A program made the position numbers and the translations under genes. This document shows positions 1-32,760 of a stretch of DNA of 64,000 bases, piece after piece; within the stretch, counting starts at the first letter, position 1; every line of letters starts with the position of its first letter. This stretch comes from the human T2T-CHM13v2.0 reference genome, Homo sapiens. The notes beneath the pieces are model-generated. The model ran no database searches. It was given only the letters and a program-made list of their open reading frames with translations, and was not told where the DNA came from. Location of the stretch: the NCBI RefSeq assembly GCF_009914755.1, contig NC_060927.1; one strand, 5' to 3'.

Positions 1-481
1 CAGATGTTTTGCTTCTCTAAGAATTAACGATGTGCCTAACAGTTGGTAAAATTTAATAAATATTTGCTTTTCCTCACATTCCTGTATATCTATTATGAAG
101 AGTCTCACACAGGTAAGTCATTTGTTTTTTTCTAAAATATTCCTCACAGATACAAACGTTCAAAATGTGTGACAGGTTGAACTAAATATGCTAACTAGAC
201 ACCTAATCAGGTCAGTTTTTGCTGAGCTGAGGAATCAAAGAGAAAAATGTAATTGAATGTCAGAGAAGCAAGTAAAATTCCCAGGCACCAAGGAGGTCCT
301 CACGCAATCAGAATGAGGAAGTCACAGGTATCGCCAGAGCACTGTGTTGGTAGCAGCTGCTTTCCATGACTTGGGCCTTCACCCCAAGGGTCAAGTGGGT
401 TATAAAGTGGCATGTTAAACTGCCACCCCCATGCCACATCCAATGGGATGCCACAGGGACAAGGAACCACATATTATTTAC

Positions 482-571
482 CTAGTTTGGTCTGCAGTGT
501 CTCTGGGCGTGGCGTGGTTTTATGTTTGGGACGTGGACGACGTGTTCTTGTTCGTTGCGATGTTTTTGGAG
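482..571 (-). CDS. ABI3BP: W25, 90 nt, phase 1-1: (A)PKTSQRTRTRRPRPKHKTTPRPETLQTKL
   Basis: Acceptor tcctttctttag, donor TAG|gtaaat; paralogous to W19. Confidence 0.9.
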   Translation of the reverse strand, partial: LQKHRNEQEHVVHVPNIKPRHAQRHCRPN

Positions 572-1398
572 CTAAAGAAAGGAAACTGGTTATTGTAGTC
601 ATATGACTCCAGAAACCAAAGAAAGGATTACACATGGTTCTAGGTTTTCTAAAGTTTTCCTAAGTCTTGAGAAATTTGTCTCTTTGGTTTAGAATTTTCT
701 TCTGATCATCTATATGCAAAAATATGTATTTTTGGTCTACTGACAGGTCTTTTGAGACAGATGGAATATATGTAATTTAAAAAAATAAACTGCAACTTTA
801 TTATTAGTTGCTGGTATAGGATTTTCAAAGAGGGCCCAGACCCAAGGGAAGTCAGACATAGGCACGTAGACATCACATCAGAGAGGGACCCAGGCCTGCC
901 TGCTTTTGGGAGAGCGTACTAAGAAATTACTTGGCTCAGACACACATTCCATTACAAGTTATTAGTATAAACACATTTTGTTTTCTAAAATAGTTGGTAG
1001 ACAATAAAAATTCTCTGTATATCTTAAAACAACAGAAAGTAAGATGCCCACAGAATTATAATTGATATTTATCAGGCAGACATTCCTAATTGTATTTGAA
1101 ATTCAGTTTTAACATAGAACACTACTGGAGCAGAATCACAGGCTCTGTCAAGCATTAATAAAGCTGGATAATATGGGAAAAATGGGACACAGATGCTGTT
1201 CACTAGTGGCGTATGGGCTTATAACCAAGTAACTTGTTTTAAGCACTTTCAATACATTCAAAATGAAGAATATAGTTCAATGACAAGAGGATGATGAGAA
1301 AATCTTATGAAAGAAAAAACCCTTAGCCCAAATAGTGATGGAATAGACTAGACAATGAGCAGAAAAAACTCATACTTAAAGACATAAGAGGTCATTAC

Positions 1399-1458
1399 CT
1401 AATGTTGTCACTGTAGCCTCAGTTCTCACAGTTACAGGCTCAATGTCTGTGGTGGGAA
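1399..1458 (-). CDS. ABI3BP: W24, 60 nt, phase 1-1: (V)PTTDIEPVTVRTEATVTTL
   Basis: Acceptor gcttttggttag, donor TAG|gtaatg. Confidence 0.88.
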
Positions 1459-2921
1459 CTAACCAAAAGCAATACAATAAACAATGGAGATTAAGAAATA
1501 CAGAAAAACAAAGTTATTTTGAAAATGAATCTTCTTAACCCTTTAATGTTTTAAATACATTTCTGAACTCTGGGAAAATAGTATTTGTTTTCCCCTAAGT
1601 AGCCAAACTATCATATCCATTTATTTCACAAAATACCCATACCCTTTGCATCCCTATAAGGGCAATGAAAAATATTTTTCTGTATTTCATTATCTGATTC
1701 CAACAACATAAAAAACCTGGATCCAAGAAAATCTTAGTTGTCCAATATATAATTTTAAAGTACTCTAAAAATTTGTTATAAAAGCTTCTGTTGGTATTTA
1801 AAAAGTTTTCACCACCATTATTAATTTGTTTTGAGAGTGGTAGTTGTGAGGAGAATTAGAAAGATGTTTTCAGTCTATTTACTGGAGATTTGTGAGAGTT
1901 GTGCAAAAGTCTTGTACGTTTTATTTGTAATAAATGTGATATTGCTTCTTACTCTGCCTCCTTATTCATTTATTTCAAATTGCTAATTAGGAGATAATTA
2001 TTCAAGTAGAAAACAGAGATAATTAAGAAGAAGGTCTAAAAGGTAATAATACAACTTTTTGTCTAGATATAAAGGATTTCTATAACATTCTGAAATTGAT
2101 TATACATAGATATAAAATTAATCAAGAATTGTAACTCTCTGGTATTAGCATCTCCATTTATCTTTCACTAAACCCAGAAGGCTAAATGTAACATTCAAAC
2201 ATCTCATCCTCAAAAACTCTTTAGGCATTTATAGAGAGGCTGACTTTCTCTTATTGCTCAAGACATCATAGCACAAAGTTGGTTTAAGCCACCACTGAGA
2301 GCATCTTCAGAACTAAAGGCATATATAATAGAAGAGATGGAGGAAGTCAGGACAACAGGATGACAACAATATTTATAATTAATTGCCTTCAAACAAAACA
2401 GAGAATCCTTATTTTGTTGGGAATTTTGCATCGCAAGATGAATTTAGCAACAGAAAGATCAATTTGCATATGAATAATGTGGAACAGGAAGAAAGGACTT
2501 TTGTGAGAAAGAAACAGTTATGTACCATCATGAGCTCCTTATAAACACATTGAGGACAAACTCCAACCAGCTTTTTCATTGCTCCCCTCCCACATCCATA
2601 AATTGTACCCACAAAGAAGCAGAGGTTTCAAAAAATTTTCTGGTTTGAAAGATGGATATAGACAGAGTGACTGTGACTCAAGCAATCTGAATGTCTCTGA
2701 ATGTGATCGAAGAAAGAATAACAATTATGTGTTACAAGCTGAGCAGCAGATGTAAGGATGCCTAATGATGTTAAAAAGGCCCCTGTTGAAAATAGTGAAA
2801 ATTTTTAAAAATGAAAACAAAAATGGTGAATGACAATTGTGCATATTATAGCTAATGAAAAAAGAGATGAGAGGCGCAAGCTCAGAGAAACATTGGCCAA
2901 GAAGGAAGAAAGCATCATTAC

Positions 2922-2969
2922 CTATGGTCATTGAGGGAGCTTCAGTTTCAAATGGAACAGGCTCAGAGA
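2922..2969 (-). CDS. ABI3BP: W23, 48 nt, phase 1-1: (V)SEPVPFETEAPSMTI
   Basis: Acceptor ttttttatgatgcag, donor TAG|gtaatg. Confidence 0.87.
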
Positions 2970-3269
2970 CTGCATCATAAAAAATAAACAGATATAAGTA
3001 ATAAAAGCAAGGAAGTCTAAACTTTTGGGTGCTCATTGGTGTTTAATTCAGAGGACACAGAGTCTAGTTTATTCTAAATTAATATAAATTGCCTTCTTGA
3101 TAGGCTTATTTATTATGTGAGATGCTTCTTAGCAAATTAAAATTTTATACTAATTGGAATCTTGGGAGAAAATTTCAACTGCAAAACAGTTGGATTCTGA
3201 GAACTGTTATATAAATATCTTCTTATGTGGTAGAAAATTACTCAGTTAACAGTTACTGTTTAAAATGTT

Positions 3270-3580
3270 GGCCGGGCACGTTGGCTCATGCCTATAATCC
3301 CGGCACTTTGGGAGGCCAAGGCAGGTGGATCACCTGAGGTCAGGAGTTCAAAAGACCAGCCTGGCCAACATGGTGAAACCCCCGTCTCTACTAAAAATAC
3401 AAAAATTAGCCTGGTGTGGTGGTGGGTGCCTGTAGTCCCAGCTACTAAGGAGGCGTAGGCAGGAGAATCACTTGAACCTGGGAGGCAGAAGTTTCAGTGA
3501 GCCGGTTGCACCACTGTACTCCAACCTGCGTGACAGAGCAAGACTCCATCTCTAAATAAATAAATAAATAGAATAAAATA
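3270..3580 (+). mobile_element. Alu (AluS-like)
   Basis: GGCCGGGCACG start, dimeric body, (TAAA)n tail, taaaatgt TSD. Confidence 0.95.
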
Positions 3581-4007
3581 AAATGTCAATAGAGTATTTT
3601 AGAGGAAGCTAATCCCTGACTAGCAAGTCTTCTTTTCAGTTGTGCCTATAAATGAAGAACAGTGTCAGCCTTCTGTGTGTACTAACAGTGGTTACTAAAA
3701 TGACTTTCAAAAATGTTTCAGATACAGAAAACTCAGGCTTCTGTTCATTACAAATTCAGAAAATAGGCCTAAAAAAGCTTTAAGAAAATGAAATGCCAGT
3801 CAATCAGGTATAAAATTTACTAATTTCCTACATATTGACTTTTTCATTTAGCACTTAAAACATCAGTGTGGCTACTTGGAGAAGATAATGAACAAAATTA
3901 TGGTATTTGGATTTCTATGATTTATATGATATGACAGATTGGAAACATTTTCAGCAATGTTTCCAAAGAAAATCCTGTTAAGCTAAAGCACTGGAAATTA
4001 TGTTTAC

Positions 4008-4082
4008 CGGATTTAGTTGGTGGCATGTCTGGTTCTGCTGTGGTTTGGGGTTTAGGAAGTAATTGTTTTGGTGGTTTTGAAC
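4008..4082 (-). CDS. ABI3BP: W22, 75 nt, phase 1-1: (G)SKPPKQLLPKPQTTAEPDMPPTKS
   Basis: Acceptor attttcttcag, donor CCG|gtaaac; separated from W21 by a 117-nt intron. Confidence 0.88.
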
Positions 4083-4199
4083 CTGAAGAAAATTAGAGTG
4101 CCATAATTAGTGTTACGGCTGAGCTGTGAATGTGGAGATTAATGTTACTTACACATTGTTTTCCTATTTATAGATCAAGGCATTGAAAGTAATGATTAC

Positions 4200-4262
4200 C
4201 AGGCTGAATTTGAGGTGCATCTGGTCTGTGTGTGGTTTTAGGTCTCTCAGATGGTTTTGAGG
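4200..4262 (-). CDS. ABI3BP: W21, 63 nt, phase 1-1: (A)SKPSERPKTTHRPDAPQIQP
   Basis: Acceptor ctttttctttag, donor CTG|gtaatc. Confidence 0.88.
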
Positions 4263-5366
4263 CTAAAGAAAAAGGTATTAAAATTACCACAATGGGTCAT
4301 GGCTGTGACTGTCAAAATTAAGGACAATTATGCAGAACAAAGACACTATATAAATTCAACGAATCTATAAACATTTCTGGGGTGTGGGAAGGGTGAAAAG
4401 AGTGTCTATTTTAACTACACACTAGCATAATTAGTTTTTCCAGAAAGGAAAATTAATTACTAAATGCTCAAAATGTGTTTTTGAGCAAAAGTAATGAGGA
4501 CAGTCATAAGACATTTTTCCTATATAAATAATTTCAAAATAGACAAAGTATATTAGTTCTATGTCTTTGATCAAAAGGTTTTCTTCAGTATACAAACAGT
4601 AAGGTAGAAATCTGATTGCTTAGGAGGCGATCTGGAAGTAATCCATAAACATTTGAAATTACACATGAGAAATAATGTTACATGGCTGCCGATGTCTGGG
4701 ATTTCCCAAAGTAAAGCCATGATAGATTTTGAGCGCTAAGAAACTATAATGAAATGATTATAATCAAACAGTATTAGTACTAAAAACAATAAAACCAGTT
4801 TGGGACTTTTAATGCTGTCAAGTTCCAAAGACCATCACTAGTTTTACATTGGATTCTAGATCAAGAACGATCTTGGTTCCTCTCGCTATCCATACCTATT
4901 CAAAAACATTTTTCAAAGAAACAGAAGAGCCGAAGAAGCCATTATTTCATGCAGCTTTTTAAAAAGAAGAAAGTCCTAGAAGTTGAATCAGTAAAGCAAT
5001 GAAATGCTAACCATGGCACTGGAGTAAAATTTTGCCATTTGTTCAGTTCAGGATGAGCACAGAGGTCCCTGTCTGAGAAGGAGTTGATGGCTTTCTCAAC
5101 CCCACGACACATATAGGGCAGACAGAAGGTCAGCAGAGAACCAGGAAGTTGTGTCCAAGACCACAGACCTTCCCTAAATGAGCACACTGGATTGTTTTAG
5201 AACTCTCCTATCTTTAGGATCTTCAGACCCAGACAGGAAAGGTGAGGAAAAGCGTGGGATGAAACTGTGATGAGGTGGTGGAACTGCAGTCATGCCTGTA
5301 ATGGAGAGTGGGGAAAGCAAAAGCTACAACCCGTGAAAGCAGCCGTGGTGGAGGGAGTAGAATTAC

Positions 5367-5414
5367 CAGTTGTGGGCACCAAGGGCTCCGGTTGTATCGT
5401 GGCAGGTTCCAGAG
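5367..5414 (-). CDS. ABI3BP: W20, 48 nt, phase 1-1: (A)LEPATIQPEPLVPTT
   Basis: Acceptor ttgcttctgtag, donor CTG|gtaatt; visible within ORF-track 5290..5478. Confidence 0.87.
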
Positions 5415-5869
5415 CTACAGAAGCAAATACCAAAAACATGAAATATTTCAAGAAGTGGCATCGTGAGGAGGGAGACATTATGCCTCAAGCTGGGACACTA
5501 CCTAAATGATGCATTTTTTCTGAATGTGATTTTCCCTTTTACAGTTCCCATTTTCCTTTCTCCTTGTTGCTTTCCCACACCTCATCTGCCATGAATGTAC
5601 ATCATAAGATTTCAAGGTGCTTTACTTTAATAATTCACTTAATGGGCCAGCTTTCTGCTGTGTGTACCTAATAACTATGACTGAGAGTATAAACATATTA
5701 TATAAAATATTACATATATAAAATGAATATAGAAACTGAGTACAGATGCTCAGTTATAAAAGTCAATTCCACTGGTTCCTAAAGCCCAGTTGCTCAAGTA
5801 GCTGATATCAAACCAGAAGCTGCCATATTCCACTTTCTATGTTAATTGGAACCTGAATATCACATTTAC

Positions 5870-5962
5870 CGGGTTTGGACTTGGGCACTTCTGGACTAGG
5901 TGTGGTTTTAGGGCGGGGACGGGGGCGGGGGCGACGACCTGGTCTTTTGGTCTTTCGTGGTG
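5870..5962 (-). CDS. ABI3BP: W19, 93 nt, phase 1-1: (A)PRKTKRPGRRPRPRPRPKTTPSPEVPKSKP
   Basis: Acceptor tttctttcttcag, donor CCG|gtaaat; CpG-rich relative to the flanking intron. Confidence 0.9.
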
Positions 5963-6617
5963 CTGAAGAAAGAAAATTAGCAAGTTAATACAAGAAGGGT
6001 GGATTTACAAACTGATGATAAATATTACATCCATCTTAGAAGGACATTTAAACCCTTTGATTTACTGTGGACATGTTTCCATCTGTTTTGCAAACTTCTA
6101 TCATTATTTATGTAGTTAAATGAGGTCTTGAATAATTTTTTTGTCACAGATTAATAAACTGTCCAAGAGATCTGTCTGTTCTTCCATTTTGAGATGGAAA
6201 ATCTCAAAACTTTGTACAGCTTAGAGAAGATAGTCACTCAAAAATATTGAAGGCATATGTTCAACAGGAACATGAGAAAGGTTGCTTTTATAAAGCCATT
6301 TGGGATAAAAATTAAAATTTGGCCTAAGATTTAAACAGAGAAATTTTTCACTTAGCATTTAAAATATCCACAAATCAACAATATATGCAGAAGGCTTTAA
6401 ATTCACTAATTATGTCAGGACAGGCAACTTTTAAAAAATGAGATACAGTTTATAAACTATACCTATAGGAATTAACTTTTTTTTCTGAAGAACAGAGCAC
6501 TCACACACACACACAAAGGGACATTAATGTATTAATTCATTAATGTGAGTCTGTCAACACAGATACCAGCAGACAGGAAAAGAAGAAACAAAGGTCACCC
6601 ACTCAATACTCTATTAC

Positions 6618-6656
6618 CTAATGTTGTTGAAGGTTTGGTTCCTGGTGTTTCAGGTC
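6618..6656 (-). CDS. ABI3BP: W18, 39 nt, phase 1-1: (G)PETPGTKPSTTL
   Basis: Acceptor cattgtcttag, donor TAG|gtaata; open frame, PTS-rich. Confidence 0.85.
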   Translation of the reverse strand, partial: DLKHQEPNLQQH

Positions 6657-6990
6657 CTAAGACAATGTGAAAAAATCACCAAGAAAGAATCAAGATCAAA
6701 GGAAAAATGACATGTATTTAAAACATGGAATATGCTTAATTTTTAATTACTAGATTGAGCAAATATAAATGGTGAAGCTTTTATCCACATGCAAAGTTTC
6801 TTTTCTACTTCAATAGATTCCTGTGTTTTCGACAAAGCGAACAAAAAAATGTAGCCAGTCAGTTAAGTTTGGAAAGAGAAATGGAACAAAAAGGCATGAT
6901 TCTCACTTGGAATATGTGACTGTAATAAAGTAACCAGCAGTTCATGTTATGAAGGAAAATATGGGTAATTGGCTAAGATGGCATTAGAAC

Positions 6991-7025
<35 letters not shown>

Positions 7026-7401
7026 CTTTTGAAGAAAAAGAAGCTATAAAGATTGGGGTTGGTTTTTCTATTTCTCTCTTTGAGTGGATTTCCTAGTCCG
7101 TGGCACTTTTCAAGAAAATCTGCAAAAGTTAGAGTTTTGAAAGTAAGAAAAACACCTCCAAAAGAGAAAACATAAATATATCCTATGAAAGTCAGGGTCC
7201 TCCCTGGCAATAAACAGGTTAGAACAAGCTCAGGGCATATTCCTCAAATGTAATTGAAGGAGAATAAAGAATCTATCAAATTAAAATTAGTATTGCTTTC
7301 ATGGGTGTCTCAGAACCACTGCTAAGTCAAGCACAGGCTGAGAGTATATCTTCGGGCAAAAATGGCTGGAAAAAGATCTGAAGGAAAATTAAGAAATATT
7401 A

Positions 7402-7713: not shown

Positions 7714-7792
7714 AAACCCAAAGCTGAACAAAGTTGAACATGGAGAGTGTTAAAGATACTTTGTTTTCACTCATTAAAAAAAGCTTTATTAC

Positions 7793-7834
7793 CTATTGTT
7801 GACTGTGATGGCAGTAGAGTCTGAGGTTCTGGGG
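7793..7834 (-). CDS. ABI3BP: W17, 42 nt, phase 1-1: (A)PEPQTLLPSQSTI
   Basis: Acceptor gcttttattacag, donor TAG|gtaata; open frame, PTS-rich. Confidence 0.85.
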   Translation of the reverse strand, partial: PQNLRLYCHHSQQ

Positions 7835-9470: not shown

Positions 9471-12159
9471 AGGTCTAAGTACCTCAGATGCTATAGGACA
9501 AGAAGAAAATAAACATCAATACATGAAATACAATAAATATCAAATAAGCATTCATACCTGAAGATAGCAAACAAAAAATTATTTTGAAACTTCAAGATTG
9601 TAATTCATGTTTTTGATTCTACAAAGTTGCCTTCCACAAGTGAAAAATAAAATTTGCTACTCATTGCATCTTTTAGACTTCACAAAAATTAAAGAACGTT
9701 GTTTTTGAAATTATAAGGAAAAATCTGCATTTTTGAGTTCCTGGCTGAGTTTGAGACCAAATAGGGATAGAACTCCATCAATTAAGCTTCAAAGTCAATT
9801 GCACATAAAAACAGTAAGGTCTATGTTTAGTAAAAATAAATATATCTTCTGACACGACTTCTATTTGACAATCATAAGGTATTATAGGTAAAGGTATAAA
9901 ATGTTCCATAACAAAGCTGAGTGGTCTGTAAATGACTAAGCCACTCATCTCAGCACAAAACAAAGACAAATTTGACTCACATGTGTGTAGGAATGAGAAC
10001 AATTTACAATTCTATCCACGTTGGAAGACGGTCAAGTGAAACAAACACCTGTAATTGGGGGCACCCCCTTATTTTCAGTCCATTAGAAGCTTAAAGATTA
10101 AACCATGAAGGAAACAATTCCCACTGGACGAGGTAGACAAGTTAAGACATGGTAGGTGGCTGTGGTTTTTGAGAAATGCGCTGAATTGTACTTATAAAAC
10201 AAGCCCAAATCAATGTGGATTTTTACTCGTTGACTTAACCACCAAGCAAAGCCAAAGGAAAAGGAGCCTGTAAAGGAAAGTGAAACAGAAAAATAGAAGA
10301 GTGTGCGGAGAGGGCTGGGAAAGGCCTCAAAAAGCTTTGGGTGGTGTATTTGCTCTTCCAAACCTTGGCTAGAAAGAGACATCTTTAGGAGAGCTATAAA
10401 GGTGGTCTGCCCTAAATAAAAATAAATAAAATTTAAGAAGCTAAAATCAAAGCAATGGTTTGCGGAGATCCAGTCATCATCCTGTGTTGCTATGGACCAT
10501 TCAAGGTCCATTTGAGGGCACAGGCCTAGGTGTGGATTCTGAAGTCATTACATTGCTGTTAGAGGAAAAGGGGTGGATTTTCTTTGATGATTAGAAGGTT
10601 TAGAAATCAAAGGAATGTAAACACATTAGCCTCCAAGTAATTCTTCCCATGTTAAAAGGAAATGTCAAATTAAGAAGTCTTTTTGCTCAAACACCTTACA
10701 ATGATAAAAATATAACCTTCCTCCCTCATTTGTATTAAAGAATTTCCTCTCAGAAATCTTGTCTTAGAAACCACTGAAATGAATAACGCAACCTATCATA
10801 TATAAACTATAACCAATGTTTGGAGAAATTTGACTATTTCCAATTTTATGTTGTAATAACAGAAATAATTCATTTGAGAGAAACCTTATTTAAATTTGGT
10901 GACTCAAGCTTGGTAATAGTCCTCTGTTCAAAATACAGCATAGTTACTACTCTATCCCAAAGCTCTCTAAGCATGATTTTTAAATAAGTGTGTATTAAAC
11001 CCTTCTCTCATACAGCTGTCAGAGTTATTTGATTTAAACCACTATTAAGGCTTTTGAGTTTTATTAGCTACGCTTCTTCCCCTGAAAACCCTGAGTGAGA
11101 GTTTTTCATTCCATTTCTCTGACTTGGAGACCTCATCCATGGTCACAGTGTCAACTATACTCCCTTTGCCTAATCCCTAATTTCCTTCCGTCTGCACCTA
11201 CACCTGGAAATCTCACTGCTTCTTTACAGGGAGTAATGAGAATTTTTTCTTTAAGCAGTTACATTTTTCTTCCTTAGCCATTTCATTGCAAAAATAAATC
11301 ATACCCACTTTAGCAGAAAATCTCTTGCTTTAATAATCCTACTGTGTAAACATGCCATTAATGGAAATGCAAGTTCAAAATCCATTAAACATTATTGTGA
11401 GAAATAATTTCTTCCCAGAGCTAAGGGTTTAAAATTTAGATAATGATGACACTGAGTGGTGACAAGGTTCCCTGTAGTCAATCTTATAAGTCAACATTTA
11501 AAACTGCCACATGGATTACAGATAGATAAAAAAAACTCCAAGATGTGGTCATTCAATATGTTCCACAATCTTTATGTCTTTTTATGTCTTAAATTATTAT
11601 ATATATAGAATGATCCCTTCCTGCAAAAGCAGCCTTTTTTTTTTTTTTAAAGGAAAACACCACTAAAAATTCCTAAGAGGTAAACAGAGGTCAGTGTTCA
11701 GAAATCAGCCCCAATTTAGAAGTCTTGGAGCATTGGGAAAATACAGGTCTTTCTGGTCTTCTAGCCTGAGAACTGAGAAACTCTAAAATAATGCAGAGTT
11801 CTTAGAAGATAGAAACACTTCTCCCCTTTCCAGCTGAAAGGCTATTGTTCATGAGATTAGAATTCCAGTCAACACTGGTATTGGAAACTATTTTGCAGTA
11901 GTAGACAAGGGAGTTCGCAATCATTCATATCATTACATTTCTGTGTTTTCTCTGTGATGATCATGAACATTGCTCAGAGCAATGCTGTGATATCACAGTG
12001 GCTATTTATGATTAGATCATTTCATTGCATGCTTACACTTTTCATGGAAAAATGTAACAAATGTCAAAATATAAATCAGAAATTCTTGCTCCAAATAATT
12101 GCAAAGAACTTGTTTTCAACCCCACTTTTGGAATATTCAAAAAAGTTTAGGGTAATTAC

Positions 12160-12234
12160 CAGGTTTGGTGTGTGTCACTTCTGGGCTGAGAGGGATTTTA
12201 GGTTTCAGAGAAATAAATTGTGTTTTACCGGGAG
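12160..12234 (-). CDS. ABI3BP: W16, 75 nt, phase 1-1: (A)PGKTQFISLKPKIPLSPEVTHTKP
   Basis: Acceptor ctttatttttccag, donor CTG|gtaatt. Confidence 0.95.
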
Positions 12235-12740: not shown

Positions 12741-13389
12741 TATATTTTTATCAGCTTTATAAACTAAAAAGGAAAAATCTAAAATCATTCAACCAGTAGC
12801 TGATGTGCATATCTTTTGCAGATGCAACAATAAATTTAAACTTCCTGCATACAATTTTAGGGTGGCATTTTTCTTTTTCTCCTAATATTTCCAGAATCTG
12901 TCACTTTGGGCCTGTCTACCTAAACACATTTTAATAAGAAAAAAACTACTCTCAAAAAAATTCACCAATAGGTATAATGCTATGATCTGAAGCATAAAGT
13001 AATTCTACTAACATTAAAATTAAAAGTTGTTTTTCCAAATGAAGTTGGAAGTTGAACTTGAGAGTCTTACTAAAAAATAAAAAAAAGAGAACTATATACA
13101 AGATTCAACTTCAAATACAATGACTGGATAGATGACAAGGAAGCAGCAATGGTTCAAAAGCTGACACAGAATGACATCTGAAGGCTGAGTTCAGATCTAC
13201 TAACTGTTGGGCCAGCTAGCCACAACCACAATAGCCATGGAGCTGGTGCACTCTCTGAGATGGGCCATGCTGTTCAAATGAACCGTTTTGAGTATCTTAA
13301 CAGGTAACAGACATTACATAAAAGCTGGGGTACTGGATTTTCCATGGTGAAATGAAGCAACACATCTACTAAGGACATATCATTATTAC

Positions 13390-13461
13390 CCGGTGTTGTC
13401 CATGTAGGTTCAGGGCTTTTAGAAATTTTAGGTGTAATTGTTCCGGCACTTGTGGTTCTTT
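13390..13461 (-). CDS. ABI3BP: W15, 72 nt, phase 1-1: (E)RTTSAGTITPKISKSPEPTWTTP
   Basis: Acceptor cctttccatcaccag, donor CGG|gtaata. Confidence 0.95.
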
Positions 13462-14512: not shown

Positions 14513-14587
14513 TATCCTTCTTACTATAAGAAAACGGACATTGTCTATCTGGAATTACATATCATGTAAATATAAAGAGACATTTAC

Positions 14588-14662
14588 CAGGTTTGGTTCT
14601 TGGCGGTTTGGGCCGGGGGCGTCGTTTAGGTGTAGAAGGGATAGATGTAGTTTGCTGGGGAG
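14588..14662 (-). CDS. ABI3BP: W14, 75 nt, phase 1-1: (A)PQQTTSIPSTPKRRPRPKPPRTKP
   Basis: Acceptor tcttctttcag, donor CTG|gtaaat. Confidence 0.95.
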
Positions 14663-15317: not shown

Positions 15318-15838
15318 CAGAACTTTAATTCTGTAGCTCTTTATTATCCCCACCAAGAGTCAATGAACTTCGCTATTTCAATAATTTTCTGTTATAAAAT
15401 GTAGGTTGTGTTACCTCTCTTTAACCATCTTTCTTCATCATGTCCAGGACTGCAAAGCCTACTTGGTGCTCTCTATACTTAGACTACTTTGGGTAAAATA
15501 CTTTGATCAAATGGTACCTAACTGTGCTAAGTAGAAGGGAACATATTTTGAAATAATTATCTATAATTCTGCTGCTAGTTTCCAGCTGGCAAAGTTGAAA
15601 GAAGAGTTGGAAGGAAACAATTCCTCAAAATATATAGTCATCAGGATTGTGAAAATTCTTTAAGGATAATCATAAGGCTAAGTAGTCAGATTCTTGGAAG
15701 AATTTCATGGTAGAGACTGAAGGGAAATATTTAGCAAAAACAAACAAAAGAAAAACAAAATTCTGAAATGGCCAACATGACTTCTCACATTACCTGTTTC
15801 GTCAATGCATACATAACTACATAAATGTCATTAGTTAC

Positions 15839-15913
15839 CAGGTGTCGTAGGCTGCATTTCTGGACTGGTAAAGATTTCCAGTTTTTGAGGAACAAATGGT
15901 GTTTCACTTGGAG
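15839..15913 (-). CDS. ABI3BP: W13, 75 nt, phase 1-1: (A)PSETPFVPQKLEIFTSPEMQPTTP
   Basis: Acceptor tttgtgctttcag, donor CTG|gtaact. Confidence 0.95.
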
Positions 15914-16453
15914 CTGAAAGCACAAACACCCCAACCCATCAAATAATCCCAGTTAAAATGAGGTATTTGAAGAATTTTAACATGCTTTTAGATGGTATAA
16001 AGCACATGCCACGAGTACATGATTAAAGATGAAAAATGCATGTAGTCTTGAAAGCTAGTGAATAAAATTCTGATTTAAAGTAGGGAAAAGGCTAGAATGA
16101 TGATTGTTCAGTAGATGACTTCAGGCAGACTTGATGCATGGAAGTAAAGTGACACAGGCCACAAACATGTGAAGTGAGATGGTGCAGGTGATGACGTCCA
16201 TGCAGTTTTCAAAGCTTTCACAACTAAAAGGATAGGGAAAATATTATCTATTACAGCTCAAAAAAATAAAATAGAGCCCTAAATGGAACGTAAAAGATGA
16301 CTGCATTTAAAATATATAGATGTATATATTGAGAAATAGGATAGATAAATGATTAGATGTGATGGAATGAAATGGTCATTTGGAAGAAAGGCATTCACAT
16401 GATTTTTTTTTTTGATGGAAAATAAAGTATGATTTTTCTGTTAAAAACATTAC

Positions 16454-16528
16454 CCAGTGTTGCCCTTGGCTGTTCAAGAGTTCTAGAAGTTTTAGGTGGG
16501 ATAGAATCCAGAATACGATCACTTGTTG
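16454..16528 (-). CDS. ABI3BP: W12, 75 nt, phase 1-1: (A)TSDRILDSIPPKTSRTLEQPRATL
   Basis: Acceptor ttattccaacag, donor TGG|gtaatg. Confidence 0.95.
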
Positions 16529-17348: not shown

Positions 17349-17668
17349 CTCCAGACAAAACCCTCTAGAAACTCGAAGACCTTTTTATGATTCTGAACAA
17401 TTCATTAAGCTATTACATTACTTTTCCTCAGTGGCAACCAAATCTATCTGCATCTCCCTTATGTGACAGAGCTTATTTACTGAGAGATGTAAAGAACTAA
17501 TCACTCTATGGGAGGAGTGGGTAAAACACAACTCCCTGACACAGGTAGAAATTTCTCCCATGCAGAGCTCCAGAGGATACAATTTTCCACTCTGCAAAAA
17601 CTAAAGGAAGAACCACCAAGTGTTGGAACACCTGGGATCCAAAGACAGAATTGAGAGGCCAGATATAC

Positions 17669-17734
17669 CTGTGTAGGAATCTGATATCTCAGGCTCATCT
17701 GATGTTGTAGGGCTTGAGAAAACATCATAAGTTG
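17669..17734 (-). CDS. ABI3BP: W11, 66 nt, phase 1-1: (A)TYDVFSSPTTSDEPEISDSYT
   Basis: Acceptor T16-aag, donor CAG|gtatat. Confidence 0.94.
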
Positions 17735-26044: not shown

Positions 26045-28115
26045 AAGACATAAAAATTAACTGTTATAAGGCAGGATGGGAAGCTTCTATGGCTAATGTT
26101 AATATGTGCAATCACATACTGTACTGTTATTACAGTTTTTGACAAGTCTCAATTCTTTGTCTAGAGAGGGTGGGGAGTTCTCAGTTGGAAGTTCTCTGGC
26201 GACCTAAGGTTGCCCTGGCAGTAGTGTAGCAGCTGAATAAAGAGTCAGTTTCCTTCTGCATTAGCCGCTGCTCATACTCCTTCAGGGCAAAACCAGAATA
26301 TTCCTTTTTTGAATTAAAGGCAAAAGAAACCTTTCCTTTATTGGCATTTCCGATATCATCTATTTTCGTCTCATTGTAACTCTGTAACCTTTACATCCCA
26401 ACATATTCTCCCCACTCCCCAATGCTTGGTTCAACTCGAGCCTTCATATATAATTCATATGCCAGGTATTAAAGTCTCGAAAATGGTTTCCTTGATGTTT
26501 TGGTTAGTTTGCTCTTGAATATTCATAGAAACCAAACACTGGATATTGCTTAAAGAAAACCCAAAAGAACCCCATGTTCCCCATGTTATAACCGAAAAGC
26601 TAAAAGATGAAAGGGATCTAAAAGTTTATCTAGTCCCTAAATCCCCAAAGGCACTTGGCTCAGGTGCTCCTGAGGGATGTGGGAGTCACAGCCAGGGCTG
26701 TCACGGTGCAGCAGATAAACCATCACATATGCCCCTAGACTAGTTGTTGCATCATAATTACAATGCAGCTGCACCTGGGTGATGGCTACTGAACCCAGAG
26801 GCTCACTCAGTATGAAATTCAACTCAGAACCCAGATTTTAGACCCAGGCGACTTGGATTGCTAAAGGGGTTTTTGCACCCACTTTAGTTAATTGCACTAG
26901 AATTTTAGAGTCAGTGACTAGGGAAACCAAGACTTAGATACAGTTTGAGGCTTCTCTGGATAAGCGAACAAGCATGGCCAACTTTCAAGTGTGTTCCCAC
27001 TTAAGGAAACTAGGGGTGACTATAATAGACATATTCCCTTAATTTGATGTCATCTTCTATCTTTTGCAGATATCTGAGCCCATTACATATACTAGAGAAA
27101 GGATAATTTCACCAAGATCTGTGGGGGCTCATGCTCATCCTTTCTCAAACCCAGTCCTCTGCTGGACTCTGGAGAACACCACAAAATGCTGCTGCATTTA
27201 AGTTCATTACATGAAACGTCCAACTTCATTATACACTATATGATATGTACCCCAAATAAAGTCAAAACAACTAGAAGATTTACAAAAATTAAAATACAAA
27301 TAAGCAAAACACAAAAATCATGGAAGTAATCATAAAGGATGGTTTCTGAGGTCTTCTTATAATTCTCATATGCTGAATACGCACTTTAGTTGACTGCTAG
27401 GCAATCAAAAGATGTACAGAATTTAATTGAGAAAAATATTTTTTGTAAAAGAAACATATCTCAATCAATTTTAATGATGGAACACAAGAATTCTCCACAG
27501 GAAAAAAAAAAAAGCCAATTGCTACAGTTTGCAAAAGAGGAAACCAATACCTTCCAAAAGTAGAGGAAAGTAGCCATCACATGGTTACTAGGAGAGCGAG
27601 GCCTGGAACCAAGGTCTATTATCAACCGCAAGGACCTGTGGTCTCTCCTACATATCATGCTACACTTACAAATTTTAGAACTTACTATACTATCTTCACA
27701 TAGTAAGCTCTTAAATGTTTATTTAATTATTTTGCCAAAAAGAAGCAAATATTCCCTGCAAGAGACTGTGAAACTCATACTGTTAAATCAGACCCATGCT
27801 GATGCTTCTTATTTTGGTACTGTTTTCCTGTCACTAAAGAGATCTCTATCAATGAGCCAATTCATAGTTCATGTTCTGGCCACATTTCTAAGATGTTATA
27901 GTATCCAGAAATTAGAACAGGTGTCTTTAAAACATTCAAAACCATTTTGCTTTTGTAATGGGGAAAATGAGGTTCATCTCAGTATCAACAAATGTATGAT
28001 AGATTTTCCATTTATTACAAAGCATAATGATAATCAATTAAGGAACCTATAAAAACAATAAGTTACTCAATATTCCTTGTTATAATCGATTTTTTTAAGA
28101 AAAGGATTTAATTAC

Positions 28116-28190
28116 CAGTTTGAGGCTGCAGAACTTTGGAATCTTCAGATATTTTAGCTGTAGGCACAATCCATGGCTTTTCACTTGAAG
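28116..28190 (-). CDS. ABI3BP: W10, 75 nt, phase 1-1: (A)SSEKPWIVPTAKISEDSKVLQPQT
   Basis: Acceptor cttttcaatatag, donor CTG|gtaatt. Confidence 0.95.
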
Positions 28191-28641
28191 CTATATTGAA
28201 AAGAAATGGAATTTGCTGAAGATTTTTTTTTTTTTAACAGGAGAACGAGACAGAAATAGGTTGCTGGTATGGTTAAGTGGCTACCAGAAGCCTGCAGTAT
28301 ACCAATACAAGAAAAAGTCATTATATATCAGTAAGAAATCAGTATGTATCCATCCAGAGAACATTTGATTAGTGGTCAGAGAGAGACCAGAGTTTGGTGT
28401 CAGACTGTCAGCATTTTTAAGGACAAAAAGCTAAGTGGATTATGTGGAATTAAGACTGATGGGTTTTACCGAATTTGCAGAAAATCCAAATAGATTTATT
28501 AAAAAAAAATCAAATCAACCATTTGTTTGCCTAACTATCAGTTCATGAGGTTTCCAGAAATAAGATGCAGTAAATGTGTCCTGCAGAATTAAGCAATCAC
28601 CACCCACAGCCTTAATATTAAATTTAAGGTACTCTTATTAC

Positions 28642-28713
28642 CCAATGTGCCCCTAGGTTTCTCAAAAGGGAAGGGTGTTTTTGCCTCAGGAAATTCTGGA
28701 AGGCTTTTTGGAG
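28642..28713 (-). CDS. ABI3BP: W9, 72 nt, phase 1-1 (likely alternative): (A)PKSLPEFPEAKTPFPFEKPRGTL
   Basis: Acceptor gtttcattacag, donor TGG|gtaata; C-terminal PRGTL resembles PRATL of W12. Confidence 0.88.
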
Positions 28714-29078
28714 CTGTAATGAAACACATAAAGAAAGTTACGACCTGAGGTGAAAGTAACAGGAAAGATTTTTAAAATTTTAAGCTTGCAAAAACAAAAG
28801 CAAACACAAAAAGGCAAATCATGTTAAGAGACCATTAGTAGTATTTCTTACATCTATGTTTCAATGTTGAATATAAGAAAGTTTCTTTTTCAGTTTTTTA
28901 TAGTTAAGTGACTAAATTTAAGCTACTGTATTTGGACTCTTCTTTCCACCCTTATTAAACCAGTTTGCTGATTTCTTCAGCTATGTTTATGTGTGTTCTT
29001 AAATATATTTCATTTAAATTTAAACCAAGCAAACACATCTGAACTAGAAAATGTCCATCTGAAAGCTTTTAAAAATAG

Positions 29079-29486
<408 letters not shown>

Positions 29487-29805
29487 TAAATATATCTTCT
29501 CTGTTAAGAGAGACAATAGAGTAAACACATTTACAAAAAATACAGAAATGATCAATTTGTTCAGTGACATATTGATTCTGAATTAAAAGAATCAAACATA
29601 ATATTAAAATATGACCACTTAAAAGAAAAACAACCCAACCAAACAATTTGTCATAGGGAGAGCCTCTTTGGGATCCTAAACTTGAAGACTGTGTCACCTT
29701 TAAGGGATTGGGTATAAATTAGCGTAATTAATTCAAAAGACTTCTTTGAAGCATGCATACAATATCCAAGGTAATAATAAAGCTGCAGTATTTATTATTT
29801 TTTAC

Positions 29806-29880
29806 CTAGAGTGCTCAGTGGCAATTCAAACTGAGGTATTAGAATAGTTTGCAATGTTTCCGGGGTCCTTTTGCTGAGAA
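29806..29880 (-). CDS. ABI3BP: W8, 75 nt, phase 1-1 (likely alternative): (V)LSKRTPETLQTILIPQFELPLSTL
   Basis: Acceptor ttttttattgtag, donor TAG|gtaaaa; open frame, same size class as neighbours. Confidence 0.88.
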
Positions 29881-30636
29881 CTACAATAAAAAAGAGTGCA
29901 GTTAGCAACTCCTGGACTTGGGTTTTGATGTTGTGGCTTAACCATGATCATGCACAGCAAGCTTTGTAACAGACTCTTGCACACAGAGCAGCCAATACCT
30001 TTAATGGAAATAACCTTCCCTGGAAAAGTTACATAGCTGTTAAAATATGAAGGTGTACATTCAAAGGGCAGTGGTGTGGCTGAGAAGATCAACATCAAAT
30101 TACAGAACAAAACACATGCTGCTCCTTTTCTTCAGGGGAAAGAGAACAACAAAGCAAGTTAGATTCTCTTGGGCTAAGAAACAACAAACATGGGTGCCAT
30201 GAAATTCTTGTTTAAAAGCATGACACTTTTGGGGATTCTTCCCAAATTTAGTATGCACAAGACTTCCCAAAGCCACTCTAAGCAGAAAGCACAGAGTCAA
30301 GACTTCCAGGTTTCCTTCATTCTCCCCCAAGATTTGGGAGTTAAAAGGCTGGTATTCTGTCTGTATAACCCAGAGACTGGTTAAAAAGGGCATTTAGTTA
30401 GCAATTAGCATCCAGATTTGCCCAGAAGTTCAGTCACCAGGATCAGCCATGTGGTTAACTCTTCAGTGGAATCTGTCCAAGAAAGAGGAAGGTTAACCAC
30501 TGCCAGGAAGGAAGGAAAAGGAGAAAGTGGGGAGGGAGAGAGAAGTTAAGGCACCAGGTTTCTTTTCTGTGAGTCCTGGGAGTTATTTCGTTGTTACTTT
30601 TGTTTTTTTAGAAAAAAAAAAAGTTCTTAGAATTAC

Positions 30637-30711
30637 CCAGTGTTGTTTCTGAAACATCTAATGCACTAGACGTAGTGGGTTTAGTGCTTCTTGGAACTGT
30701 TTCAGGAGTCA
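30637..30711 (-). CDS. ABI3BP: W7, 75 nt, phase 1-1: (V)TPETVPRSTKPTTSSALDVSETTL
   Basis: Acceptor tttttacctttcag, donor TGG|gtaatt. Confidence 0.95.
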
Positions 30712-32682
30712 CTGAAAGGTAAAAAGCACAACTTTACAAATTAAGATAAAGTGAAGCAACCAAAGACCAGGAGACACATCCTGTTGCCTTTTAGAATTAG
30801 TGGCTGATATTTGTATAGCCCATTTCTTTTTGTGTTACTATGTAAAGAGCTCCTTGGCTTGTCTCAAGTGCCTGAGCTGACACTCCTCTCCAACTGGTCC
30901 TTTCTGGGTTTGCTTTCTATCCAAAAGAGCACTCTGACCTGACTTTCATTGAAACACTTATAAGCTTAATAATAATTTTAAATCTGCCTTTTTCTTTATC
31001 ACCAGGGCTTAGCACAATACCTGGGATAGAGTAAACAAGCACATGATTATAGTTTATTACTTTTTAAATCATTTATTGAAGAATCTGAAGGATAATCAAG
31101 ATAATAGTTTATTAAACGAATAAATGGGCAAATGAAAGGATGACTCTGGGCTAAAAGTCTTACTTAGAGCTACCACATTATAAGACTTCTCTCTTACACT
31201 GCAATGAATATGCAAAGCTTGAAAATGAATTGAAATTATGATCAGAATTTAAATGCTCAGCCACAGATTTGTCCCAAATGCTAGATTAAAGGTAATAAAA
31301 AGCTCAATTAAAAAGCTCACACTCCTTCCCCACCAGCCAGTCAACAGTTTTGGAGAAATAAGAACTAAGATCACTGGGATCTGAAATGAATTGAGAGCCA
31401 GAAAGCCCCGGAATGTTGCAGGGCAAGAACACAAAATAAACACAATAACCCTGAGTAATAAGTTGTGGTGTTTTCCTAAGTGTTTCTGAAGTGGAAAACT
31501 CTGAGGAGGGTTTGGCAGAGGACTAAAAACATGTAGACTCTCCCATCAGAAATGCTGCCAAGAGAAAAAAGTATAATTGGGGAAAGTGGGTAGAATCTTT
31601 GAGGGAGAAAGGGATTTGGAGTCCCTATAGAGCCATGCCTATGCTTTTCTGGATATTGATCACGTATACGGAAGTCAAAAACCATCTAGGAATTTCATCC
31701 AAATGGGTCACTCCAGTAGCTATACCTCTGCTCCAACTCCCATGAAGGTGGGGATGAAAGGTTCATCTCTTTTCTTTGGAAAAGGACCATATTCATCTTG
31801 CTCTCTCAGACATATTCCTACTTGAATGGATTTCTTGAAGTTATTTTACTGCCACAACAACTTTTATCTTCTCTGGACCAGTTACGAGTCCAGAAGTTTA
31901 GTAAAAGGTACATCATCAATATTTCAAGTTATAGGATTTTGTGGACTAAAAAATTCACTACAGATTGGAGTGACTCTGCTAAATATAGATTGTGGGAAAT
32001 TCTTGCCAGATGTCTGTTTCATCAGGTCCTGGATAAGGTGGTACTACTCTGGCAAAAACTCTAGCTCAAAGATTAATGCCTCCCCCCTGGACTGGACTTG
32101 AGTAGTTCATTAATAGAAGAGATGCTGAATGTTTGTTAGTAATGGTGACAAACTATGGAGAAAATGCTTACTGCATTAATTCTTTGAAGGATTGTTACTG
32201 AACTATTCTATATTCTCTACACTAGGATTGCTAAAGTTCCAGAGACATTTGTTTCTAAATGATTCCAGGGTATTTTCATAGATATTAAGCTATGGATTTG
32301 TGAAGAATATATGGCATTTTGCTACACTGACCACTTGTAAAAGTGTAGAAATGAAAAATGGTCTAATGTCATCATATGAAAGAACAGCACCAAACTTGAG
32401 GTATGATGTTTTTAATATAAAAATATTTCAGTGTTGAACTAATAATTTTCATTTAGAGTAAAAAATACAGCTTCTGTATTACATATCAGTTATGTGATTC
32501 AATACTCCATTTTGCAGCTATTGTTTTCCCAAACGTTAGAGACCTAGAATCTCCTACTGTTTTGCATTTATGATCAAAATGTATTTCCTACTGGCTCTTT
32601 ACTGAAAAAAAGACTGCAGATTAGTATTTGAAAAAAAGCATTTTTTCTTTTCTCAAGGTCAACAACATAGCGATCTCATTAC

Positions 32683-32760
32683 CTGTTGTGGGTCGTGCTG
32701 AGATTTTTTCAACCTCTGGTGTTTTAGATTCGGCAGGTAATGCCAAGGTTTCATTCTTAG
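32683..32760 (-). CDS. ABI3BP: W6, 78 nt, phase 1-1: (A)KNETLALPAESKTPEVEKISARPTT
   Basis: Acceptor ctgactttttag, donor CAG|gtaatg; sequon NET. Confidence 0.95.

What the first reader, a model, noticed from the sequence alone, without database searches (positions are those of the whole stretch)
476..32685. Twenty consecutive donors without +5G: a shared 5' splice-site signature
Seen: donors of W6-W25 are GTAATG, GTAATT, GTAAAA, GTAATA, GTAATT, GTATAT, GTAATG, GTAACT, GTAAAT, GTAATA, GTAATT, GTAATA, GTAATA, GTAAAT, GTAATT, GTAATC, GTAAAC, GTAATG, GTAATG, GTAAAT. None has +5G, 19 have +3A+4A, and all have -1G. Four of the five upstream exons (W1, W2, W4, W5) do have +5G. Established: most human donors have +5G, which pairs with U1 and the U6 ACAGAGA box; sites lacking it rely on exon-side contacts (U5 loop 1); +4A faces the METTL16-methylated U6 adenosine; LUC7 paralogues discriminate donor classes. 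Inference: uniformly weak, same-class donors could let one core-spliceosome modulator set the length of the whole stalk. Shared ancestry by exon duplication is the alternative explanation.
Basis: partly seen in the sequence, partly recalled or inferred. Interest (0 to 1): 0.75.

Follow-up and report, generated by a model that had tools for sequence, protein, structure and literature searches.

The report
ABI3BP stalk exons share weak donors
A long run of small, duplicated exons coding for the flexible middle of the matrix protein ABI3BP all use the same unusual splice-donor type that lacks the normally preferred G at intron position +5, most likely a trait inherited by exon duplication and kept so that the exons stay skippable.

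Summary
All 20 donors, W6 to W25, read as listed: 0 of 20 have +5G, 19 of 20 have +3A+4A, and 20 of 20 have -1G. A published sample of 1,990 human introns gives P(no +5G | -1G) = 27.5%, so 20 independent sites would give about 6e-12.

The run is longer than reported. About 25 further predicted exons lie downstream of the window, making 45 donors with consensus G|GTAAH and no +5G. Published junctions confirm 8 of these predicted donors.

The origin is serial exon duplication. Basic exons carry GTAAAT and acidic exons carry GTAATG/GTAACG, and the homology includes the donor. Inheritance alone is not enough. Array flanks have diverged to JC 0.6-0.9, yet only 4 of 96 donor positions differ.

Only 19 of 45 donors have -2A, and most LUC7 Balance scores are 0 or -1. 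They therefore fit neither published donor class.

Cartilage RNA-seq shows cassette use and a 29-exon skip from W16 to D21. Titin PEVK exons also lack +5G in 41 of 43 predicted donors. Control by a single spliceosomal modulator remains untested.

The parts
32677..32685 (-). W6 donor CAG|GTAATG (exon 32683-32760, 78 nt)
   Evidence: junction end in PMC9239745 table S8
30631..30639 (-). W7 donor TGG|GTAATT (exon 30637-30711)
29800..29808 (-). W8 donor TAG|GTAAAA (exon 29806-29880)
28636..28644 (-). W9 donor TGG|GTAATA (exon 28642-28713)
28110..28118 (-). W10 donor CTG|GTAATT (exon 28116-28190)
17663..17671 (-). W11 donor CAG|GTATAT (exon 17669-17734); the only in-window stalk donor without +4A
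16448..16456 (-). W12 donor TGG|GTAATG (exon 16454-16528)
   Evidence: homologous to W15 through exon 3' half plus 5 nt of donor
15833..15841 (-). W13 donor CTG|GTAACT (exon 15839-15913)
   Evidence: homologous to W16; junction W13->W14
14582..14590 (-). W14 donor CTG|GTAAAT (exon 14588-14662), basic-type peptide
13384..13392 (-). W15 donor CGG|GTAATA (exon 13390-13461)
12154..12162 (-). W16 donor CTG|GTAATT (exon 12160-12234). This is the border donor of the 29-exon skip: in cartilage it joins D21 (57% of its listed junction use), W17 (18%), and W18, W24, W25 or D25.
7787..7795 (-). W17 donor TAG|GTAATA (exon 7793-7834, 42 nt); first exon of the skipped block
6612..6620 (-). W18 donor TAG|GTAATA (exon 6618-6656, 39 nt)
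5864..5872 (-). W19 donor CCG|GTAAAT (exon 5870-5962), basic type, homologous to D2/D4/D7/D9/D11/D14/D22
5361..5369 (-). W20 donor CTG|GTAATT (exon 5367-5414)
4194..4202 (-). W21 donor CTG|GTAATC (exon 4200-4262)
4002..4010 (-). W22 donor CCG|GTAAAC (exon 4008-4082)
2916..2924 (-). W23 donor TAG|GTAATG (exon 2922-2969), acidic type
1393..1401 (-). W24 donor TAG|GTAATG (exon 1399-1458); first acidic unit of the tandem array
476..484 (-). W25 donor TAG|GTAAAT (exon 482-571); first basic unit of the tandem array, which continues downstream of the window
51957..51965 (-). W1 donor GAA|GTAAGT (within-gene control, has +5G)
51351..51359 (-). W2 donor GTG|GTATGT (control, has +5G)
42299..42307 (-). 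W3 donor AAG|GTAATT (no +5G, outside the run)
41295..41303 (-). W4 donor TAG|GTGAGT (control, has +5G)
40634..40642 (-). W5 donor TAG|GTAAGC (control, has +5G)

Best explanation
The disordered middle of ABI3BP is encoded by about 45 short exons of 39-93 nt. All are in phase 1-1, so any subset can be skipped without a frameshift. The array grew by repeated tandem duplication of an ancestral exon, and later of a two-exon unit: a basic exon with donor G|GTAAAT and an acidic exon with donor G|GTAATG. Each copy inherited a donor without +5G.

These donors match the consensus only from -1G to +4A. That is a contiguous run of 5 positions in 27 of 45 donors, 6 in 14 and 7 in 4. Most also lack -2A. They are therefore suboptimal on both sides of the GU.

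Purifying selection has kept the whole hexamer, including a non-G at +5, while the surrounding intron diverged. The inferred consequence is that no exon in the array is recognised strongly enough to be constitutive. Inclusion then depends on auxiliary signals and on competition between near and far acceptors. This allows single-exon skipping and en bloc skipping, such as W16 donor to D21 acceptor, which removes 29 exons. Stalk length becomes adjustable.

Shown: the sequences, the paralogy, conservation of the donor against diverged flanks, and cassette and block usage in cartilage. Inferred: that weakness is the selected property, and that it is what permits the skipping.
For: Donor pattern. 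Searches give 45 of 45 donors as G|GTA, 43 of 45 with +4A and 0 of 45 with +5G. The hexamers are GTAAAT x14, GTAATG x10, GTAATA x6, GTAATT x4 and others x11.

Reading frame. One search shows W4-W25 all in phase 1-1.

Exon types. Searches show alternating basic and acidic exon types, with the donor type tracking the exon type.

Paralogy. (all-against-all blastn) finds a tandem array (W24, W25, D1-D15) at 65-83% identity, with homology running into the introns. Older exons match only through the exon 3' half plus 4-8 nt of the donor.

Conservation against flanks. Searches give pairwise JC distances of 0.59-0.90 for array introns at +7..+100 and -60..-21. The donor +1..+6 shows 4 differences in 96 site-copies (read off the alignment). 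Intronic G on the transcript strand is 0.179. A neutral +5 in about 28 lineages with saturated flanks would lack G with probability about 0.004.

Within-gene controls. W1, W2, W4 and W5, and the predicted D27, have +5G.

Exon usage. (PMC9239745 supplementary table 8, parts 1-2 of 22) list skipping junctions W6->W10, W6->W11, W6->W14, W7->W10, W8->W10, W10->W14, W16->W18, W16->W24, W16->W25, W16->D21, W16->D25, D2->D21 and D7->D21. W16->D21 is 57% of the listed W16 donor use in low-grade cartilage and 45% in high-grade cartilage.

Other literature. PMC13518942 (passages) reports the disordered region partly spliced out during osteoblast differentiation.

Comparator. 41 of 43 predicted titin PEVK donors also lack +5G.
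Against: - No orthologue could be examined, so selection is inferred from paralogues only.
- General purifying selection on the hexamer cannot be separated from specific avoidance of G. About 5-7 changes among A, T and C are visible and none is to G, which is not significant on its own.
- Donor strength was not scored with MaxEnt or measured.
- W7-W13 carry the same donor type but barely shift in the osteoarthritis comparison (|delta PSI| at most 0.012). Donor type is therefore not sufficient to explain block behaviour.
- The coordinated shift of block W17-D20 could reflect a change in the mix of cells expressing long and short isoforms.
- Of the 25 downstream exons, 17 have donors that are predicted only.
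Confidence: 0.65

Rival explanations
1. First reader's model. Because all stalk donors belong to one class, a single core-spliceosome modulator sets inclusion of the whole stalk and hence its length. Candidates are the METTL16/U6 m6A43 contact with +4A, a LUC7 paralogue, SNRNP27K or U1-C.
For: The type is homogeneous: G|GTAAH, with +4A in 43 of 45 donors. The review PMC11732430 (sections 4-5 read) states that +4A sites with weak U5 potential are the ones lost when U6 m6A, SNRNP27K, LUC7L/L2 or the U4/U6 T-loop is disturbed. In osteoarthritic cartilage all 9 adjacent-exon junctions listed inside block W16-D21 rise, and 5 of the 6 long skipping junctions from the W16 donor or into the D21 acceptor fall.
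Against: Balance scores are 0 or -1 in 34 of 45 donors and +2 or higher in none, so the LUC7 model predicts little. The same class in W7-W13 does not shift with the block. No perturbation data for ABI3BP were found (20 of 639 papers listed, none with ABI3BP). Supplementary exon lists of the LUC7 and METTL16 papers were not examined.
Confidence: 0.12
2. Pure inheritance. The run is a passive by-product of duplication, with no selection on +5 and no functional meaning.
For: Donor type tracks exon type, and homology covers the donor. The visible changes at +5 are too few to prove avoidance of G.
Against: Flanks of even the youngest array have JC 0.59-0.90, yet only 4 of 96 hexamer positions differ. 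In older exons the homology stops 4-8 nt into the intron, yet +5 is still never G. The neutral expectation of about 18% G gives roughly 0.004 for 28 lineages.
Confidence: 0.1
3. A tissue-specific RNA-binding protein acting on the introns is the real switch, and donor weakness is only permissive. The protein could be a block repressor like RBM20 on titin, or an enhancer reading YCAY clusters downstream of the donors.
For: The titin precedent has a border donor exon and a border acceptor exon (PMC3575840 passages). YCAY motifs are enriched at +7..+150 after stalk donors. The density is 47.8 per kb in the acidic array. In the 29 non-array exons it is 25.4 per kb, or 106 observed against 56 +/- 8 in 2,000 random deep-intron sets. 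The background is 15.9 per kb.
Against: The control was deep intron only, not exon-proximal intron of other genes. The basic array shows no enrichment (15.9 per kb). QKI, RBFOX, PTB and GUGUG motifs are not enriched. There are no CLIP or knockdown data.
Confidence: 0.3

Closest known systems
Titin PEVK exon array (en bloc skipping, RBM20)
   Same: Both are tandemly duplicated, short, phase-1 exons that code for a disordered spring or spacer. In both, blocks are skipped between a border donor exon and a border acceptor exon (PMC3575840 passages). 41 of 43 predicted PEVK donors lack +5G, or 31 of 33 distinct contexts.
   Different: PEVK donors are AAG|GTAYWY: -2A in 42 of 43 and +4A in only 5 of 43, so they are clearly of the AG//GU type. 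ABI3BP donors are G|GTAAH, with -2A in 19 of 45 and +4A in 43 of 45. The titin repressor is known and no ABI3BP regulator is known. The PEVK exons here are predicted from Pfam PPAK hits and were not checked against annotation.
Two-class model of U2-type 5' splice sites (AG//GUNNN versus NN//GURAG; LUC7 left- and right-handed)
   Same: The loss of +5G is accompanied by an invariant -1G. This is the classic -1/+5 compensation (PMC11732430 section 4; PMC8283771).
   Different: 26 of 45 donors are neither AG//GU nor //GURAG. The review quotes 53.6% //GURAG plus 45.1% AG//GU for human sites (the primary source, Sibley 2016, was not held). Balance scores are mostly 0 or -1.
Variable-exon stalks of cell-surface and matrix proteins (CD44 v-exons, PTPRC exons 4-6, tenascin-C FN3 A-D); recalled, except TNC
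   Same: In these genes consecutive frame-neutral cassette exons set the length of an extracellular spacer. TNC appears beside ABI3BP in the same datasets.
   Different: Their donor sequences were not examined here. The comparison rests on recall.
Cassette exons with weak 5' splice sites and poor U6 complementarity that are supported by QKI
   Same: ABI3BP stalk donors also have poor U6 complementarity, with no +5G (preprint 10.1101/2025.09.04.674271, passages).
   Different: ACTAAY motifs are not enriched near the stalk donors: 2 observed against 3.0 expected downstream, and 5 against 2.7 upstream. ABI3BP is not mentioned in that text.

Membership tests
AG//GUNNN (U5-loop-1 / left-handed) 5' splice sites | -1G | tested here: met
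   20 of 20 in the window and 45 of 45 overall
AG//GUNNN (U5-loop-1 / left-handed) 5' splice sites | -2A together with -1G; Balance score of -2 or lower in the LUC7 scheme | tested here: not met
   AG at -2/-1 in 8 of 20 in-window donors and 19 of 45 overall. Balance of -2 or lower in 6 of 45.
NN//GURAG (U6 ACAGA / right-handed) 5' splice sites | +3R, +4A, +5G | tested here: not met
   +5G in 0 of 45 donors. Balance of +2 or higher in 0 of 45.
U12-type introns | Donor /RTATCCTT (motif recalled) | tested here: not met
   No stalk donor matches. The nearest is W11, GTATATCT.
Tandemly duplicated cassette-exon array | Sequence homology among neighbouring exons | tested here: met
   blastn identity of 65-83% among W24, W25 and D1-D15, with weaker links to W12/W15, W13/W16, W19, W21, W23 and D16-D24. 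Genome search with W25 found two copies downstream.
Tandemly duplicated cassette-exon array | Symmetric phase, so that skipping keeps the reading frame | tested here: met
   W4-W25 all start in phase 1 and have lengths divisible by 3. D exons were selected with that constraint.
Tandemly duplicated cassette-exon array | Observed alternative inclusion | tested here: met
   35 LeafCutter junctions in two ABI3BP clusters include 15 that skip one or more stalk exons. This is published data from one tissue.
Weak 5' splice sites | Low MaxEnt score or low measured activity | tested here: inconclusive
   No MaxEnt model was on hand. As a proxy, the contiguous consensus run is 5 positions in 27 of 45 donors, 6 in 14 and 7 in 4, and matches to CAG|GTAAGT number 5-7 of 9 in 44 of 45.

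The most novel reading that the evidence does not exclude
Arrays of duplicated, frame-neutral exons that code for disordered spacers (the ABI3BP stalk and titin PEVK) are actively held in a +5G-free donor state, so that no exon can escape block-level control. The ABI3BP type, G|GTAAH, fits neither the AG//GU nor the //GURAG class. It would be a third, doubly weak donor class read through the +4A contact with U6 m6A43 and/or downstream YCAY enhancers. This would give cells a rheostat for the length of an extracellular-matrix protein.
Probability: 0.15. Interest if true: 0.75.

Novelty: new member of a known kind. Interest (0 to 1): 0.5.

Why it matters
ABI3BP isoform length changes in osteoarthritis and in osteoblast differentiation. 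The cis rules that make half of its 69 exons optional have not been described.

The array offers 45 natural replicates of one donor type inside one transcript. That makes a clean test bed for three questions:
- whether absence of +5G is what keeps an exon skippable;
- whether selection can act against strengthening a splice site;
- how block skipping over 38 kb is organised.

The titin parallel suggests the rule may be general for spacer-coding exon arrays.

Tried and rejected
Genome access.
I used loci already delivered; 2 of the 45 PPAK hits had no sequence.
- A planned control on collagen exon arrays (Pfam PF01391) gave 137 hits but no loci for the same reason. Whether constitutive duplicated arrays drift back to +5G stays open.

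Literature.
- Sibley 2016, the source of the 53.6%/45.1% figures, is not held.
- Searches for ABI3BP splice-site work found no description of the donors. The ABI3BP review PMC6426741 has no occurrence of 'isoform' or 'exon'.
- Search 23, for a table of hexamer frequencies, and search 58, for selection on weak sites, gave nothing usable.

Analyses.
- Intron length alone could not identify the 38,138-nt junction: W11->D16, W12->D17 and W16->D21 all fitted within 9 nt. It was resolved by matching exon lengths in the junction table.
- QKI, RBFOX, PTB, GUGUG and hnRNP A1 motifs are not enriched near the stalk exons.
- U12-type identity was rejected, and a regional AT-bias explanation was rejected because non-stalk exons of the same gene have +5G.
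- D1, a 33-nt copy, was dropped from the counts because no junction uses it. With D1 included the tally is 46 donors, also with 0 +5G.

Full report
**1.

ABI3BP lies on the minus strand. reverse-complemented the 25 annotated exons and read the nine bases around each donor. None has +5G, 19 of 20 have +3A+4A (W11 is GTATAT), and all 20 have -1G. W1, W2, W4 and W5 have +5G, and W3 (GTAATT) does not. One search shows that W4-W25 all begin in phase 1 and have lengths divisible by three. They code for a sequence rich in Pro, Thr, Lys and Glu with no stop codon in frame.

**2. Chance**

PMC8283771 (sections 11, 13, 14, 16 and 18 read) analysed 1,990 human GU-AG introns. Of these, 445 lack +5G, 1,598 have -1G and 6 lack both. 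P(no +5G) is therefore 22.4%, and P(no +5G | -1G) is 439/1598 = 27.5%. For 20 independent donors this gives 1e-13 and 6e-12. The invariant -1G is the well-known compensation for a missing +5G and is not a separate surprise. The donors are not independent (section 4), so these numbers only show that the run is not a sampling accident.

**3. The run is more than twice as long**

brought in the rest of the gene, and joined it to the window. Searches scanned the minus strand for the pattern AG, then a phase 1-1 open frame, then G|GT. The scan recovered all 20 annotated stalk exons and found a continuation downstream of the window. I curated 28 candidates, D1-D28. D1, a 33-nt copy, is used by no junction seen and was dropped.

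W6-W25 plus D2-D26 give 45 donors:
- -1G 45 of 45, +3A 45 of 45, +4A 43 of 45.
- +5 is T in 22, A in 19, C in 4 and G in 0.
- +6 is T in 20, G in 12, A in 9 and C in 4.
- -2A is present in only 19.

The commonest hexamers are GTAAAT (14) and GTAATG (10). The next predicted donor, D27, is GTAAGT, and D28 is GTAATA. Further predicted C-terminal exons read GTAAGT, GTACGT, GTTCGT and GTATGT.

Independent support for the predictions comes from PMC9239745. Its supplementary table 8 (parts 1-2 of 22 read) lists 35 LeafCutter junctions for ABI3BP in hg38. Matching exon lengths (42, 48, 57, 60, 60 and 84 nt) fixes the mapping at hg38 = window + about 100,834,200, varying by up to about 17 nt along the locus (fitted offsets 100,834,195 to 100,834,213). 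The junction ends then coincide with the predicted donors of D2, D3, D4, D7, D20, D22, D23 and D24, and with the acceptors of D3, D4, D5, D8, D21, D23, D24 and D25. The other 17 downstream donors remain predictions.

**4. Origin: serial exon duplication**

The peptides fall into two recurring types. One is a basic exon of 75-93 nt, with peptides such as PKTSQRTRRPRPKTKTTPSPEVPQTKL. The other is an acidic exon of 48-60 nt, with peptides such as PTTDIEPVTVRTEATVTTL. They alternate from W24 to D15.

The donor tracks the exon type.
- All 16 basic-like exons have GTAAA. These are W14, W19, W22, W25, D2, D4, D7, D9, D11, D14, D16, D20, D21, D22, D23 and D25.
- The acidic-like exons have GTAAT or GTAAC. 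D17 is the exception, with GTAAAA.

All-against-all blastn of exons with 150-nt flanks shows 65-83% identity within the array, with homology extending tens of bases into the introns and up to 150. Older exons (W12/W15, W13/W16, W16/D20/D22, W19, W21, W23, D16-D24) match only through the exon 3' half plus 4-8 nt of the donor. The genome search with W25 also found two downstream copies at 75-78% identity.

**5. Inheritance alone is not enough**

In MAFFT alignments of the 7 basic and 9 acidic array units, the introns at +7..+100 and -60..-21 have mean pairwise identities of 0.48-0.59. This corresponds to JC distances of 0.59-0.90. The donor +1..+6 differs at only 4 of 96 site-copies: D9 at +6, D6 and D8 at +5 (T to C), and D10 at +6. 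Even the youngest copies are therefore old, and their hexamers are under purifying selection.

For the older exons the flanks are saturated, yet +5 is still never G. Intronic G on the transcript strand is 0.179. If each group with alignable flanks is collapsed to one lineage, about 28 lineages remain, and a neutral +5 would lack G with probability about 0.82^28 = 0.004.

This rejects neutrality but does not prove specific avoidance of G. The visible changes at +5 among A, T and C number only about 5-7. The strict A in basic exons and T/C in acidic exons looks like conservation of whatever base is there. Orthologues are needed, and none could be fetched with these tools.

**6. What class are these donors?**

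The review PMC11732430 (sections 4-5 read) divides human donors into NN//GURAG (53.6%) and AG//GUNNN without GURAG (45.1%). It cites Sibley 2016, which I could not open. ABI3BP stalk donors are never GURAG, and only 19 of 45 are AG//GU (8 of 20 in the window). So 26 of 45 belong to neither class.

The LUC7 paper (PMC11842720, passages) defines a Balance score: consensus matches at +4..+6 minus matches at -3..-1. The 45 donors score 0 (18), -1 (16), -2 (5), +1 (5) and -3 (1). They are balanced and poor on both sides, rather than left-handed.

The contiguous consensus run around the GU is 5 positions in 27 donors, 6 in 14 and 7 in 4. What they all keep is +3A+4A. According to the review, this feature makes sites sensitive to loss of U6 m6A43, SNRNP27K, LUC7L/L2 or the U4/U6 T-loop. 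That is a prediction, not a result.

**7. Are the exons optional, and do they move together?**

In cartilage from 124 patients the W16 donor joins several acceptors. Shares of the cluster in low-grade tissue are:
- W17: 0.038
- W18: 0.012
- W24: 0.010
- W25: 0.018
- D21: 0.120
- D25: 0.011

So 57% of the listed W16 donor use skips 29 exons (W17-W25 and D1-D20) over 38 kb. The figure is 45% in high-grade tissue. The D21 acceptor also receives D2 and D7.

Within this cluster all 9 junctions between adjacent exons of the W16-D21 block rise in high-grade tissue. Five of the six long junctions that leave the W16 donor or enter the D21 acceptor fall. The exception is W16->W18, which skips only W17 and rises slightly. 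The paper's text describes this as increased inclusion of the cassette chr3:100808235-100846372.

In the second cluster W7-W13 are also cassettes, with junctions W6->W10, W6->W11, W6->W14, W7->W10, W8->W10 and W10->W14. Their changes are at most 0.012 and of mixed sign.

The stalk exons are thus truly optional, and one block behaves coherently. Exons with the same donor type outside that block do not follow it. The block shift could also reflect a changed mix of cell types. PMC13518942 (passages) independently reports partial removal of the disordered region during osteoblast differentiation.

**8. A comparator: titin PEVK**

Searching the genome with Pfam PPAK (PF02818) gave 45 exon-sized hits on contig 2, and 43 of them had sequence in the delivered loci. 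I took the first in-frame phase-1 G|GT after each hit as the donor. Of these, 41 of 43 lack +5G, or 31 of 33 distinct contexts once a recent triplication is collapsed.

Their form is AAG|GTAYWY: -2A in 42 of 43 and +4A in 5 of 43. This is the AG//GU type and differs from ABI3BP. The exons are predicted only.

Long runs without +5G are therefore not unique to ABI3BP. They recur in another duplicated, phase-1, spacer-coding array that is skipped in blocks (PMC3575840 passages; that text does not discuss donor composition).

**9. Possible auxiliary signals**

Against deep-intron background from the same region, YCAY is enriched at +7..+150 after stalk donors.
- Acidic array: 47.8 per kb.
- The 29 non-array exons: 25.4 per kb, or 106 observed against 56 +/- 8 in 2,000 random sets, none of which reached 106.
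- Basic array: 15.9 per kb.
- Background: 15.9 per kb.

QKI, RBFOX, PTB, GUGUG and hnRNP A1 motifs are not enriched. The control is imperfect because exon-proximal intron differs from deep intron, so this is a lead.

**10. Verdict**

The signature is real, longer than reported, and far from chance. It arose by exon duplication, and the hexamers have since been conserved while the flanks decayed. The most likely meaning is that uniformly suboptimal donors keep every stalk exon skippable, which permits single-exon and block skipping that tunes stalk length. The idea that one core-spliceosome factor sets the length is untested and gets no specific support.

In print I found no description of these donors (searches; review checked). 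Supplementary exon lists of perturbation studies were not examined and may bear on this.

Noticed in passing
window 476-32685 and downstream (transcript-sense +7..+150 after each stalk donor): YCAY (NOVA-type) motifs are enriched downstream of stalk donors. Densities are 47.8 per kb in the acidic array and 25.4 per kb in 29 other stalk exons, against 15.9 per kb in deep intron. The basic array is not enriched.
   Followed up: partly
L023-L052 (G000:C2:179132632-179176487, minus strand; TTN PEVK): 41 of 43 predicted PEVK exon donors lack +5G and read AAG|GTAYWY. Many of these exons are preceded by ACTAATATCTTT, a motif that looks like both a branch point and a QKI site.
   Followed up: partly
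window 482-1458 and downstream to about -18293: Basic exons (Arg/Lys/Pro-rich, 81-90 nt) and acidic exons (Glu/Thr/Val-rich, 57-60 nt) alternate strictly. Block inclusion therefore adds charge-patterned pairs, and the junction codon is Ala (G|CT) before basic exons and Val (G|TT) before acidic exons.
   Followed up: partly
downstream of window, -1077..-1045 (L012): A 33-nt degenerate copy of the acidic exon with an intact CAG|GTAATG donor lies between W25 and D2. It is used by no junction in the cartilage table and may be a decaying pseudo-exon.
   Followed up: partly
window 17735-17765: The W11 acceptor has an uninterrupted run of 16 T followed by AAG, which is an unusual 3' splice site. W11 is also the only in-window stalk exon whose donor lacks +4A (GTATAT).
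   Followed up: no
window 4083-4199: The intron between W21 and W22 is only 117 nt, far shorter than its neighbours. The two exons may be defined as a pair.
   Followed up: no
downstream of window, between -5811 and -8360: Two acidic exons (D5, D6) follow each other without a basic exon between them. This suggests a lost or undetected basic unit in the array.
   Followed up: no
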